Assembly: GCA_951406725.2 (NCBI GenBank)
Contig: OX597834.1
Span: forward strand, 8,184,001-8,248,000
DNA: 64,000 nt
Direction of reading: 5' to 3'
DNA from: Octopus vulgaris
Taxonomy: Eukaryota
The notes beneath the pieces are model-generated. The model had not been told where the DNA came from. It saw only the letters and a list, made by a program, of their open reading frames with translations, and ran no database searches. Shown here one piece after another: positions 2,796 through 63,519 of this stretch. The stretch's first letter is position 1; every line of letters begins with the position of its first letter. Both the position numbers and the translations under genes were made by a program.

Positions 2796-4065
2796 TACTA
2801 TAACATTTTATGGACCATTGCATTTCTAAAATGCTCAGGTTTGATTTTATGAACATTTGGCAGTTACAAGATGGTGAAACGACAGGTGATTGCCTTCCTA
2901 TCTCCATAAGCAATATATTTATCAGAAAGTTAGCATCTTGAAACATTTCAAAACAATATTTTATACTTTTGTTATCCTAACAGGTATACATTTTGCTTAA
3001 TTTAATTAACAATATCATATACAAATTATAAAGTCGCTCCACATCTTATTACGCCAAAATATTTTTTTATCAGACACACGTACAAAATCAGTATGATCTT
3101 CACCTCATAATAATCTCAATTTAAATTTTGGCTCTTCCAGTATTAAAAATAATGACATTCACTTAGAGCTTATATTAATTTGTCCAGGAACTTACCACTC
3201 TCATCATTCATTTAACTTTGAGTAAGAATAATGCAATTTCGTAATATGAAAGAGTTTACTCTCTTTGTTTCTGCATCCAGACTTATAAATATATGTAGAT
3301 AGATTTTTTTGATTGTGAAATACTGAAAGCAATATTGATTTTAATTATGATTAAAAGTATATAGCTGAGATGAGTTGTTTTGTACGATTAGAGTTCTTCG
3401 AATATTTAAATTTAACACTATATTTATTTAGGAAGCTTATTTATAAAAATTTTTATATTCTACACAAAATTTCGGGTGGGACAAACGCCCATCAGCATTG
3501 AATACTTCATATTTGGCTGTTCAGACGGTATCAGACTGGAATTAAAATTGATTGGCTTCGAAACTTTATTTGTATACCAAACATAATATCGGTCACGTGA
3601 ACTGGGTCACTGAATGTTTTACAATGCCTCATATATATATATATTTACTTGAGTAGATTAGTTTGAATAGAGATTTTAAAACTTCTTTTATTAAATTTAC
3701 AAACAACTTATCTTTATTATATTTTCAGAAAAAAAAATTTGCATTTCAATTGATTCATTAGATTAACTTTTCTTCTCCATCATTAGCTTGATTACATTCT
3801 TCTACATTAAAACGTCTACTTAGCATAGATTTGGAACTTTTTTATTATTATTATTTGTATGGAACAATACTTTCTATTATGTATATTGTTTTCTGTAAAA
3901 CTAAGACTAATGGTAAAACAGGATCAGATATTGAATGGCAATGTAGATTGGGGTATACTTTACACCGCTCCGAGTGTATTTCTTTTCCTTTTATTCTCTC
4001 TATTATAACGTTTATATATTACACGAACGTATATAAACAGAAGATACAAATATTACAGGCTTTCA

Positions 4066-4369
4066 CCTACACACACAGAGACACTAACTAAACATAGACG
4101 CACATAGAGATATACGCATGCGCAAATGAAGACACATACAATAGAAATACAAAATGGCTGATGGTTAGTAAGGAGAGACACAAATAAGAAAGGAGAAAAC
4201 AAAGGACCACTGATGCGGTCACAGGGGTGTGACGAAAGAACTCTGGCCGAAATAAGATTAAAATTAATGTAAAAAAATAAACAACACTGAAGCAAAGTAA
4301 CATCAAATATATAGTACGTGTGTTTTTATTGGATAAACTGGCAAAATGACCATTCCGAAATACAACAAT
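4066..4369 (+). mobile_element. Penelope-like pLTR remnant, family P1
   Basis: homologous to 26931-27225 (minus); contains a hammerhead-like fold at 4204-4248. Confidence 0.6.
4204..4248 (+). ncRNA. variant minimal type-I hammerhead (core CUGAUGC)
   Basis: ggacca-CTGATGCG-GTCACA-gggg-TGTGAC-GAAA-gaa-CTC-tggcc; stem II perfect, stem I imperfect, core A9 replaced by C. Confidence 0.45.
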
Positions 4370-30921: not shown

Positions 30922-31514
30922 ATAGGAAAAAAGCAACAAGAATGGATTAAAATCTTGGTACAGTTGTTTCGTACGCGGACATATTTAATAAGCTACAAAA
31001 AAATGCAGTAAATATAGATGGCTCGTACTCGTCAGCCGAAAAAACATCAGAGAATTCCCAAACATCAAAAGGGGTAGATACAAATGAGGGTGTAAGATTA
31101 ATTGCATTGAAGTAAGTTCGATTCCTGGAGATCCGATGAAAGGTCTTGAACTTACAGAATTTGTGCATGTCTATATATCGCTCATATTGAATTGTTAATC
31201 AAGTTATGTGAAGAAATTTCGGATACAGTCATGCGAAATTTCTGAAAATCCGAGTAAGAAGCAAAGTGACTGTCATTTCGGCTGACGAGTACGAGCCATC
31301 TATATTTACTGCATTTTTTGTAGCTTATTAAAGATGTCCTCGTACGAAACAATTGTACCGAAATTTTAATCCATTCTTGCTGCTTTTTTCCTATTTGTAA
31401 TCACCCCACTTGTCGTATGGTTTACACCATATAGATTTCCGGTGCATCCTAGTTAAGGACCATATACATGTGAATTCATTAGAATTCACTTGAATCTCAA
31501 TTACTTAAACCGTG

Positions 31515-47111: not shown

Positions 47112-47615
47112 CTCTCTCTCTATCCGCTAAGTCGAAGTCGACTCTCGGTCACTCGTTGGATCAGTGTCCTCCAGTCAGCCCCACCCTGGGCCGCCTTCTT
47201 CAGATTCACTAAGTCCATTCCGGTATCCCTCCCAAAGGTGCCAAGCCAGCGGGTTCTTGGTCGGCCTCTTCCTCTCTTGCCACTGACCATTCCGAGCGTA
47301 ATGCCCTTCTCCAGGGATTTTCTCCGCATAATATGCCCGAAATATGCCAATCTATGCTTGGTGGTCCTATCTTCTAGCGACGTTTTCGGCCTGATCTGCT
47401 TAAGAACTTCTCCTTGTTGAGCCTCGCTGTTCATGGAATCCGTAAAAGTCTTCTCCAACACCAAAGCTCGAATGCATTAATTATCTTCTGGTCAGGTTTC
47501 TTTAGTGTCCAGGTCTTGCATCCATATGTTGCTATTGCGAAGGCAATTGCATTCACCAATCTGCATTTGGTAGCGAGTCTGATGGGCTCTACTCTTCCAG
47601 ACCCTGCGCCTGCTC
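47112..47615 (-). mobile_element. 5'-truncated RTE (BovB-like) LINE
   Basis: ATYGCKTWTL..INAFELWCWRRLLRIP..LAYFGHIMRR..GKRGRGRPRTRW; TSD ccaagtcatat at 47101 and 47616. Confidence 0.93.
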
Positions 47616-53885: not shown

Positions 53886-55157
53886 ATTTATTTTTCACAG
53901 TTATTTGACTAGTTATTTCTCGGACAATCAATACTGGTGATAATGGTAAAAGTATATAATGGTTAAGTAGATCTCGTAGAAATGATGCTTGGATTAATAC
54001 TGTTTATATTTGTTGTTGTAGTAGTGTTTCTATTATACAGAAGCAACAATTAAAGGTGAAAGAATCAAGTTTTGTTGTGTTGGGTTCCTTAGGCATCATG
54101 CATATATAAGGCAGACTTAGTGAAACGTGGCTTACCCAAGCCATGGTGTAAGCTATCACTTTAAACATGTTGTGTGCCAATGGGATATTATTTTCAGCAA
54201 TTCGTGTGATCTCGTAGTTCAGCTGAGATTGCGAGTATGTTGACTCAAGTCCAATCCGATAAAGCAGGCCTACGTTGTACATGCACATCAAGCAATACAT
54301 GTATTGTTATACATACCATGCAATAGATCAAATAAACGGAAATCTGATATTTCTAACACGTGCAACTCACTTTTTATTACAGTTAACATTATATTATCAT
54401 TTCCATTACTATTGTACTGTAAAAGCTTTTCTCACATAGTTGCATGTATGTCTCTGTTTGTAAGTATTGTAACGTAGGATTAACTCTAACACAAACTCGT
54501 GATACATTCCCTCTTCAAACTTAACTCTTAAACTCACTTTGACTCACTGTCAAAGTCTCATTTTCTACAACCTCATCAATCATTGCTCCCGCTTGCTCGA
54601 AATTCTTCCCCTCTCTTGCCTCTCTATTTTTCTCACTCGGTCGCTCTCTCGTTCTTCCTGTGTCGTTTCGTCACACTTTCTTTGTCGTAATCTTCCTATG
54701 TATTTCTCTCTCATTTCTGTTCTCCTCTCTTCTCACTTTCCGTCTTCTCTCCGGTCTTCTATAACTCTCTGGAATTCGTATTATTTTGTCAAATATAATT
54801 CTTAATTATTCACAAAATTTTGAATTAATCATGCAATATCTTATAGTCTTGACATTTCGAAAACAGGATTGTTTATCTTTAAAATGCCATTATAAGGCTG
54901 TGTGAAAGCCGAATCTGATCAGCTTGATCGTAAAACAGGCTGATGGGACCTGATATGAAAGGATTTAAATGCTAAAGGGATAACAATCACATTCCTTATC
55001 CAGAAGGCTGCAATACATATGTCTCCTAAAACCGTTTACCTTAATTCTCTCGATATTTTCTTCTTTAGACTTTGAAGAAAATCAGATGTGAATTTTCGTT
55101 CTTCTTTGTCGTATCTCTATTTATATGCAAGGTAAAAAGTGTTAATATATATCCTTA

Positions 55158-55528
55158 ATTAATGCATTCGAGCTTTGGTGTTGGAGAATACTCTTACGGA
55201 CTCCATGGACAGCGAGGCTCACCAATGGAGAAGTTCTTAAGCAGATCAGGCCGAAACTGTCGCTAGAAGCTAGGATCACAAAGAATAGATTGGCATATTT
55301 CGGTCATATTATGCGGAGAAAATCCCTGGAGAAGGACATCATGCTTGGAATGGTCAGTGGCAAGAGAGGAAGAGGCCGACCAAGAACCCGCTGGCTTGAC
55401 ACCATCAAGAGTGATACTGGAATGGACATAGCCAATCTGAAAGAAGCGGCCCAGGATAGAACTGACTGGAGGACACTGATCCAACGAGTAACCGAGCGTC
55501 GACTTCGACTGAGCGGGTAGATTGATAG
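55158..55528 (+). mobile_element. 5'-truncated RTE (BovB-like) LINE, same family as 47.1 kb
   Basis: INAFELWCWRILLRTPWTAR..LAYFGHIMRRKSLEKDIMLG..RLRLSG-stop; TSD atatatcctt. Confidence 0.93.
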
Positions 55529-60103: not shown

Positions 60104-60435
60104 GGTTGTTGCTGTTGCTGTTGAGCGTAGCGGTCTTCGTCCAGTGGGAGAAGTCCGAACCGTGGTCCTTTGCTATTCGTAGGACCCGCAGAAGAGAAAG
60201 CAGGTCAACCCCCGACACCGAGACGGATGCGTAGGAATTCGGGGAAAAGAAATAGGAAGAACGAGTGAGAGAAAGTTGGAGCGAAAGAGTACAACAGTGG
60301 TCGCCACCACCCCCTGCCGTGGAGCTTTATGTGTTTTCGCTCAATAAACACACACAACGCCCGATCTGGGAATCGAAACCGCGATTCTCCGACCGCGAGT
60401 CCGCTGCCCTAACCATTGGCCCATTGCGCCTCCAC
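60104..60435 (-). mobile_element. SINE family D variant with an alternative 3' module and CAA/CAG tail
   Basis: head and core align to family D up to cttcc, then unrelated sequence. Confidence 0.85.
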
Positions 60436-61199: not shown

Positions 61200-61401
61200 T
61201 TGTGTGTCTGTGTTTGTCCCCCTAGCATTGCTTGACAACCGATGCTGGAGTGTTTACGTCCCCGTCACTTAGCGGTTCGGCAAAAATGACCAATAGAATA
61301 AGTACTGGGCTTACAAAGAATAAGTCACGTGGTCGATTTGCTCGACTAAAAGCGGTGCTCCAGTATGGCCGCAGTCAAATGACTGAAACAAGTAAAAGAG
61401 T
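60953..61401 (+). mobile_element. SINE family A
   Basis: full-length copy with expanded internal (TA)n. Confidence 0.92.
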
Positions 61402-61422
61402 ATATATATATATATATATATA

Positions 61423-61885
61423 TATAAGATTCGTTTTCGTAATAAGATAAAAAATCAAGGCTGTATAGATATTAGAGCCTTTATAGATAGAAGGTCTTAC
61501 AGCTGTTTCTAGGATATTTATTAATAATATTCCTTCATCGGAGACGGTGTTAGAGGAAAGTTAAATCATAGTTTAGATGTGAAATTAACTATTAGTTAAC
61601 TTTCTTCTCACACCGTCTCCAATGAAGGGATATTATTAATAAATATCCTAGAAACAGTTGTAAGATCTTCTATCTATAAATGCTCTAATATCTATACAGC
61701 CTTGATTTTTTTTTTATTTTATTACGCAAAAATACTCTTATATACACGCTAACATAGAACCAACTTTAAATCCTTCATTCGCAATATTACCGAATCTGGA
61801 AGTTAAATATGGTCTGTCTATAGCACTTATGGAGAATTACCTGACACCTTTGGGTCTCAATGACAAAATTATCTCTTATAATCCA
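61423..61885. mobile_element. Penelope-like foldback element, family P8
   Basis: ~140-bp inverted arms 61423-61564 / 61596-61744 with a ~30-nt spacer; the plus copy runs on to (TA)n at ~61885. Confidence 0.85.
61494..61545 (-). ncRNA. type-I hammerhead with CCGAUGA core
   Basis: GTCT-CCGATGA-aggaatatt..aaatatcct-a-GAAA-CAGCT-GTA-AGAC; palindromic stem III ACAGCTGT; sister copy at 61615-61666 on +. Confidence 0.75.
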
Positions 61886-61905
61886 TATATATATATATAT
61901 ATATA

Positions 61906-62005
<100 letters not shown>

Positions 62006-62945: not shown

Positions 62946-63135
62946 ATATGTTAGATAATACAGCTATGATTTAAAGGGCAGGAAGCTGAAACTCGTACGA
63001 CTACGATCCTCAACCACCAGGGATGAGCTGATACCTAAAAATAACAAATTGAATAAAAATGGTATTTTTGTTTCTGTAAACTTAAAAGAAATACTAAAAT
63101 TATTGCTATACTTGCATTGAACAGTTCTATTATGT

Positions 63136-63519
63136 GGAGGCGCAATGGGCCAGTGTTTAGGGCAGCGGACTCGCGGTCATAGGATCGCGGTTTCGATTGC
63201 CAGACCGGGCGTTGTGAGTGTTTATTGAACGAAAACACCTAAAGCTCCACGAGGCTCATGCAGGGGATGGTGGTGATTCCTGCTGTACTTTTTCACCACA
63301 ACTTTCTCTCACTCTTACTTCCTGTTTCTGTTGTACCTGTATTTCAAGGGGCCGGCCTTGTCACTCTCTTTGTCACGCTGAATATCCCCGAGAACTACAT
63401 TAAGGATACACGTGTCTGTGGAGTGTTCAGCCACTTACATGTTAATTCCACGAGCAAGCTGTTCTGTTGATTCGGATCAACCGGAACCCTCGTCGTCGTA
63501 ACCGACGGAGTGATTCCAC
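63136..63519 (+). mobile_element. SINE family D, full length
   Basis: homology; TSD tctattatgt. Confidence 0.92.

What the first reader, a model, noticed from the sequence alone, without database searches (positions are those of the whole stretch)
61423..61744. P8: ~140-bp-arm hairpin containing two opposed hammerheads with a non-canonical CCGAUGA core
The minus copy has perfect stem I (GTCT/AGAC), an AT-rich stem II, palindromic ACAGCTGT and a GUA site. The plus copy differs by a few transitions. With only a ~30-nt spacer, this is the strongest ribozyme-containing dsRNA/cruciform in the window and an independent replicate of the 30.9-kb architecture in unrelated sequence.
Basis: partly seen in the sequence, partly recalled or inferred. 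Interest (0 to 1): 0.72.

Follow-up and report, generated by a model that had tools for sequence, protein, structure and literature searches.

The report
Penelope stub with altered hammerhead core
This hairpin is two cut-off ends of a Penelope-type jumping gene joined head to head, a layout already described; the less ordinary part is that its ribozyme carries a core change (U4 to C), likely to weaken cutting, which replaced the normal core in the younger copies of two separate families in this genome.

Summary
The hairpin is real. It is a 5'-truncated insertion of a Hydra-clade Penelope-like retroelement (PLE) in a (TA)n tract: an inverted arm ending at a proximal 3' site (61423) and a direct arm running about 135 nt further into a 'tail' (61880). 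A parent copy with reverse transcriptase, GIY-YIG endonuclease and the same layout exists (L031). Most copies are single arms and junctions vary, so it is not a MITE. Only the minus copy has CCGAUGA; the plus copy is broken (G5A). Any transcript holds one sense ribozyme, buried in the duplex, so P8 is unlikely to cleave. The architecture is published, and this scan noted it on other DNA (e1-9549524, e1-8829949). New here: U4C is a subfamily trait. Old subfamily C has U4 in 93 of 100 listed copies; four younger subfamilies carry C4. A distant Hydra family switched likewise (old: U4 96 of 100; whole family: C4 89 of 100) and its youngest copies have intact tandem ORFs. All 26 published Hydra hammerhead rows read have U4. 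Cleavage and selection are untested.

The parts
61401..61426 (.). (TA)n tract at the left end; the insertion target. It follows the 3' end of a common SINE (SINE identity recalled, not tested). No target-site duplication can be told.
   Evidence: Hydra PLEs target (TA)n
61423..61582 (-). Inverted 5'-truncated copy of the PLE 3' end (pseudo-LTR), ending at the proximal 3' site, without tail
   Evidence: matches parent L031 positions 3168-3336 at 89%
61494..61545 (-). Type I hammerhead motif, C4 core, one unpaired A on each side of stem II, palindromic stem III; predicted cleavage after the GUA, between 61498 and 61497
   Evidence: predicted lowest-energy dimer is the hammerhead dimer, -20.5 kcal/mol
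61582..61583 (.). Head-to-head junction of the two truncated 5' ends, 1-nt overlap
61582..61744 (+). Direct 5'-truncated copy of the PLE 3' end
   Evidence: matches parent from position 3176
61615..61666 (+). Decayed hammerhead copy: G5A, C>U in the palindrome, C>U in stem I
61745..61880 (+). 3' extension ('tail') present on one arm only, ending at the distal 3' site
   Evidence: 1431 candidate loci, 40 scored; parent match to position 3457
61885..61947 (.). (TA)n tract at the right end

Best explanation
P8 is two 5'-truncated copies of the 3' end of a Hydra-clade Penelope-like retroelement, joined head to head in a (TA)n tract, likely made in one insertion event and likely inert. Shown: parentage, asymmetry (one arm with tail, one without), variable junctions, (TA)n target, decay of the plus copy. 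Inferred: the RT-endonuclease nicked both strands of the (TA)n target; one strand primed reverse transcription at the proximal 3' site and the other at the distal site; both cDNAs stopped about 35-45 nt upstream of the hammerhead and were joined at their ends. Because the arms overlap, this needs two RNAs in a dimer or strand displacement on one RNA. In the parent's tandem transcript the hammerhead would work as a dimer through the palindrome. C4 was inherited from the source element, where it had replaced U4; it most likely leaves a weakened ribozyme whose fold was still kept. In P8 itself a read-through RNA would form a long duplex that hides the one sense ribozyme.
For: Parent L031: RT (38.7% over 199 aa to P0001, E 1e-38), CxCX5C linker, endonuclease, about 950-nt 3' region with the hammerhead, tail at the direct end, and a 974-bp inverted tail-less copy at the 5' end. 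8 of 11 other endonuclease loci carry the same arm downstream on the same strand, one cut by the locus edge. 32 of 37 adjacent divergent pairs are proximal+tail, none proximal+proximal or tail+tail; 18 of 18 such pairs not picked by the tail query, at most 4e-6 if ends were independent. In 10 of 14 pairs with long overlap, at most 2 other copies match an arm as well as its partner does. 59 of 69 tail ends are followed by a TA or CA repeat within 32 nt. Published: inverted 5' copy and one-ended tail (PMC8557442); Penelope-13_HM with hammerheads on both strands; cleavage and extension of both strands, two start sites, predicted dimer (PMC11167929). Across subfamilies the hammerhead changes at 1 of 37 columns against 22 of 58 nearby flank columns (A1 vs C, p 3e-5), and 1 of 37 against 11 of 58 after the switch to C4 (p 0.017).
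Against: P8's own arms are no closer to each other (91.5%) than to other copies (median 90.7%; 36 of 87 as close or closer); they share only two minority states (32 of 67 and 8 of 67 copies), so one source template is not shown for this locus. No intact ORF or full tandem unit of P8's own lineage was found. Pfam support is below cut-off (GIY-YIG E 0.0027; RVT_1 E 0.022 for L096, none for the L031 RT). The RWK and DKT motifs were seen in P0001 and family F, not in P8's lineage. Conservation is partly inflated by how copies were found: single A1 copies also deviate less in the hammerhead (2-3%) than in the flank (5-6%), and the 3' half alone gives p 0.098 after the switch. U-turn mutants were low-activity in a mutational scan (PMC9901934), so C4 may be dead, not weak.
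Confidence: 0.9

Rival explanations
1. A single arm inserted first and the inverted arm arose later, by fold-back repair or by a second insertion into the first.
For: P8's arms are no closer to each other than to other copies; they differ in a 4-nt length variant near the junction.
Against: Fold-back would copy the same 3' end; 18 of 18 unbiased pairs have two different 3' ends. A second insertion would be expected in (TA)n, not at the truncated 5' end.
Confidence: 0.05
2. The hairpin has been kept as a functional dsRNA or ribozyme switch (editing substrate, small-RNA source, cruciform).
For: Very stable predicted hairpin; the minus hammerhead keeps all core positions of the family.
Against: The plus copy is broken at G5, the arms carry private changes at ordinary levels, and the layout is common (5 of 46 sampled loci). 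The palindrome needs a second sense copy, which no single transcript has.
Confidence: 0.03
3. A palindromic DNA-transposon MITE with TA target duplication.
For: Inverted ends flanked by TA.
Against: Most copies are single arms with variable 5' truncation; junctions differ in every pair; the sequence is the 3' end of an RT-endonuclease element; one end carries a tail.
Confidence: 0.01
4. A non-LTR retrozyme (tandem non-coding unit copied through circular RNA).
For: Type I hammerhead with palindromic stem III, PLE-related.
Against: No head-to-tail short units at P8; the arm is collinear with the 3' region of an autonomous element.
Confidence: 0.01

Closest known systems
Hydra-clade PLEs, e.g. 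Penelope-13_HM and Hydra-1_Obim (Craig et al. 2021, PMC8557442; passages, section 11, supplement parts 1, 2, 52 of 59)
   Same: C-terminal endonuclease with CxCX5C linker, no CCHH inside GIY-YIG, CxxC and CxH motifs, (TA)n target, 3' hammerhead often with one extra base on each side of stem II; Penelope-13_HM has an inverted 5' copy with hammerheads on both strands.
   Different: All 26 Hydra rows of File S2 have U4; this lineage has C4 in its younger subfamilies. Tail about 135 nt against the 30-40 bp described. 3' region about 950 nt. Sequence identity to Hydra-1_Obim was not computed; its listed hammerhead differs.
Dual minimal hammerheads of Schistosoma Cercyon PLEs (Cervera and De la Pena 2014, PMC4209133; text parts 1-2 of 4, supplement 2 part 2 of 3 and term searches)
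   Same: Hammerheads 100-700 bp apart on opposite strands, tied to truncated PLEs; unpaired base after A9; palindromic loop 3; dimer needed; low activity in vitro.
   Different: Their core variant is U3-A8; no CC core found in the searched supplement (file 1 not searchable).
PAc Poseidon element of Anolis (Frangieh et al. 2024, PMC11167929; text parts 1-2 of 4)
   Same: Two RT start sites bounding the tail, both DNA strands cut and extended, predicted protein dimer.
   Different: There the start sites are not homologous to the target and the tail lies in the ORF; here both 3' ends finish in TATA beside (TA)n, and coding in the tail was not shown. Hammerhead mutants did not block PAc insertion in vitro.
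Natural U4C viroid hammerhead (cited in Perreault et al. 2011, PMC3088659; passages and section 8)
   Same: Same core change; much lower activity in vitro yet enough for infectivity.
   Different: A viroid variant, not a fixed state of high-copy retroelement subfamilies.

Membership tests
Hydra-clade PLE | RT followed by C-terminal GIY-YIG endonuclease | tested here: met
   L031 collinear with P0001 over RT and endonuclease; Pfam GIY-YIG below cut-off; atlas hits 0.94-0.95
Hydra-clade PLE | CxCX5C linker, no CCHH inside GIY-YIG, CxxC and CxH around E and N | tested here: met
   translations against the definition
Hydra-clade PLE | RWK and DKT motifs | tested here: inconclusive
   present in P0001 and family F; no copy of P8's lineage reached that region
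Hydra-clade PLE | (TA)n target | tested here: met
   59 of 69 tail ends; 41 of 57 tail-less ends followed by TA
Hydra-clade PLE | Placement in an RT phylogeny with reference clades | not tested
   no reference PLE proteins were held as sequences
Neptune-clade PLE | CX2-5CxxC linker and CCHH motif with two cysteines inside GIY-YIG | tested here: not met
   one cysteine between the motifs, CxCX5C linker
PLE insertion structure | 5' truncation, inverted 5' copy, tail at one end | tested here: met
PLE insertion structure | Head-to-tail tandem forming a pseudo-LTR before the ORF | tested here: inconclusive
   seen in family F; not found for P8's lineage
Type I dimeric hammerhead ribozyme | Stems I and II, palindromic stem III, NUH site | tested here: met
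Type I dimeric hammerhead ribozyme | Canonical CUGANGA core and G10.1-C11.1 closing pair | tested here: not met
   C4 in the minus copy, C4+A5 in the plus copy; unpaired A on each side, then G-U
Type I dimeric hammerhead ribozyme | Self-cleavage | not testable with these tools
   needs an assay
MITE | Fixed length, both terminal inverted repeats in most copies | tested here: not met
   36 of 46 sampled loci show no inverted family piece; junctions vary
Non-LTR retrozyme | Head-to-tail short units each with a hammerhead | tested here: not met
   none at P8; arm is the 3' end of a coding element

The most novel reading that the evidence does not exclude
Hydra-clade PLEs in this genome were repeatedly selected for a weakened hammerhead: U4C swept in at least two distant lineages (endonucleases 31% identical), perhaps a third, while the rest of the ribozyme was kept, because slow or protein-gated cleavage spares the tandem RNA needed for translation and insertion. 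C4 hammerheads would then be a working class missed by CUGANGA descriptors, and family F (4925 exact motif hits, intact 717-aa frames in identical tandem units) would let the role of PLE ribozymes be tested with natural before and after alleles.
Probability: 0.25. Interest if true: 0.62.

Novelty: new variant of a known kind. Interest (0 to 1): 0.37.

Why it matters
The hairpin alone matters little: it is a known footprint of PLE insertion. The core change bears on an open question, what PLE hammerheads are for (Craig 2021 call it unclear and ask whether they parasitize PLEs; PAc inserts without cleavage in vitro). Here the same change, known to lower activity elsewhere, replaced the canonical base in younger subfamilies of two lineages, giving matched U4 and C4 alleles for an assay. 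It also means descriptors that require CUGANGA undercount PLE hammerheads. The strict one-tail rule in inverted pairs gives genomic support to the two-start-site model.

Tried and rejected
Rfam: whole window, 259 matches at E up to 1, the 150 shown all simple-repeat look-alikes below gathering score; hairpin alone, no hammerhead family. First idea that U4 copies are CpG decay of C4 (5 U4 against 6 A5 in 58 copies): rejected, the sample was biased to one subfamily; genome counts are 1579 C4, 790 U4, 177 A5 and old subfamilies are U4. First clade guess Neptune: rejected. Tail as ORF start: no codon-position bias (11/8/10), search for a longer extension gave 1 hit; unresolved. Expression: no RNA holder listed; contigs of four runs cover both arms but cannot show this locus, strand, ends or editing. 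Homolog search among longer proteins gave 1 unnamed hit among 1638 candidates. Energy of a hand-written dimer structure failed to evaluate; the predicted lowest-energy dimer was used instead. The first conservation test with wide flanks was inflated by poor alignment and was redone with near flanks. Lunse et al. on PLE hammerhead variants was not held and may describe C4 cores. No host gene context was established: none of 16 long open frames in the window was tested further.

Full report
Observation. The inverted repeat is at the stated place: 125 nt ungapped at 93%, reaching 61423 and 61744 with gaps. The plus copy has G5A and C>U changes in the palindrome and stem I. The arms abut with a 1-nt overlap, and the right arm continues as family sequence to 61880. 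The genome is 2.8 Gb in 227 contigs; that it is an octopus is inferred from this and from earlier notes.

Family and parent. The arm has 1248 candidate loci, 40 scored. Copies are 5'-truncated at many points and end at a proximal site or about 125-135 nt further, in a tail. Two hits 4 kb apart proved to be one insertion, L031: broken RT frames, an endonuclease frame, about 950 nt of 3' region with the hammerhead, a tail, and a 974-bp inverted tail-less copy at the 5' end, 97.7% identical. This is P8's layout at full scale. Of 11 other endonuclease loci, 8 carry the arm downstream on the same strand. The endonuclease has a CxCX5C linker, no CCHH inside GIY-YIG, and CxxC and CxH motifs, which define the Hydra clade (PMC8557442 section 11). 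L031 is collinear with P0001, which has the Hydra RWK and DKT motifs. Pfam scores stay below cut-off, and no reference tree was built.

How the hairpin forms. Among 37 adjacent divergent pairs, 32 join a proximal end with a tail end, 5 have an internal end, and none has two alike; 14 of the 32 were picked by the tail query, the other 18 were not. In older subfamilies 'proximal' means that homology to the parent stops near that site. Three pairs (L049, L137, L169) barely overlap, as in twin priming on one RNA. In 10 of 14 long pairs the partner is among the closest copies; P8 is an exception (36 of 87 as close). In 46 loci taken at steps along the chromosome-1 lists, 10 have an inverted family piece and 5 have two opposed hammerheads. 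This fits the published picture: inverted 5' copies and a one-ended tail, two start sites and extension of both strands by a predicted dimer, opposite-strand hammerheads 100-700 bp apart, and Penelope-13_HM. The priming steps are inferred, not shown.

Can P8 cleave? Predicted only. The isolated minus copy folds weakly as a monomer (hammerhead fold -2.8 kcal/mol) and its lowest-energy dimer is the hammerhead dimer (-20.5; -28.1 for intact copy L002). The old U4 copy tested (L128) was not predicted to fold this way as monomer or dimer, which limits what folding can say. In the full hairpin, forcing the hammerhead costs 64 kcal/mol. A transcript of either strand has one sense copy only. No data on expression, editing or RNA ends were obtained.

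The C4 core. Exact 19-mers: 1579 C4, 790 U4, 177 C4-A5, controls 0. A tree of 150 copies (152 found, 2 dropped as false), with the two core columns masked, gives a ladder from subfamily C through B1, B2, A2 to A1, P8's group; mean within-group distance falls from 0.245 to 0.116, and the switch lies inside B1. Because many U4 copies were picked by U4, subfamily C was counted directly: U4 in 93 of the first 100 of 138 listed. A distant Hydra family F (endonuclease 31% identical) has 4925 motif hits, C4 in 89 of the first 100; its older subfamily has U4 in 96 of the first 100 of 355; distances are 0.264 among 11 U4 and 0.147 among 17 C4 copies, the latter lowered by tandem units. Its youngest copies are tandem 2.58-kb units with open 717-codon frames. 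Family D has both states (C4 30 of 100 listed; the pattern also takes in family E) with only a weak age difference (0.173 against 0.19). Old copies turning C4 into U4 by decay cannot explain over 90% U4 with no C4-A5 in those lists.

Is the ribozyme still constrained? Subfamily majorities differ at 1 of 37 hammerhead columns against 22 of 58 near-flank columns for A1 and C, and 1 of 37 against 11 of 58 for A1 and C4-type B1 (p 0.017; 3' half alone p 0.098). Single copies also deviate less in the hammerhead than in the flank, so part of this is ascertainment. Constraint is strong over the whole lineage and modest after the switch. U4C lowers activity in vitro but allowed viroid infectivity (PMC3088659); U-turn mutants were low in a scan (PMC9901934 passages). 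A 2026 virome survey used a CYGANGA descriptor and saw both bases (PMC13481778 passages), so C4 as such is not new. The extra base on each side of stem II is common in published Hydra hammerheads. Also seen: PMC13282606 (passages, no mention of ribozymes), PMC6765202 (passages), bioRxiv 10.64898/2026.07.22.740005 (part 1 of 5).

Verdict. P8 is an ordinary stub of a known retroelement clade, and similar stubs were noted before by this scan. The added result is a core variant that took over in the younger subfamilies of two lineages, with an intact family at hand for testing. Whether this is drift in a ribozyme that matters little, or selection for weaker cutting, is open; I favour tolerated weakening.

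Noticed in passing
L175, L176 (G000:C1:57.208-57.225 Mb): Young Hydra family F: four minus-strand and two plus-strand hammerheads at 2.58-kb spacing, three open 717-codon frames with all Hydra motifs, C4 core; 4925 motif hits genome-wide, many in inverted pairs.
   Followed up: partly
window 30922-31394 (tail-like stretch to about 31515): Second inverted pair, 120-nt arms at 94%, canonical core, unusually long stem II (about 57 nt), unrelated sequence; looks like another PLE stub with a one-sided extension. Family not searched.
   Followed up: partly
L025 near 2112 (minus strand): Another hammerhead-like motif with a C4 core and a canonical G-C closing pair, from a family not identified.
   Followed up: no
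L003 near 2438 (+); L087 near 790 and 5230; L018 near 1124 (-): Further hammerhead families with long stem II or canonical cores in random flanks; hammerheads are dense in this genome.
   Followed up: no
L049, L137, L169: Inverted insertions whose two pieces hardly overlap and meet near the proximal start site, the pattern expected from twin priming on one RNA.
   Followed up: partly
L124, L125, L126: Inverted pairs in which both arms carry the inactivating G5A change, so either dead-ribozyme sources were copied or arms converted each other.
   Followed up: partly
L031 about 4190-4260; L037, L108: The RT-endonuclease linker of this lineage holds a long in-frame Asn/Thr-rich trinucleotide expansion, absent from P0001.
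   Followed up: no
window 60318-60435 and 63134-63251: 118-nt inverted pair 2.7 kb apart around P8; these are two of five copies of a dispersed repeat in the window, not part of P8.
   Followed up: yes
window 47123-47476 (-) and 55146-55517 (+): Two related open frames that look like LINE fragments (recalled, not tested).
   Followed up: no
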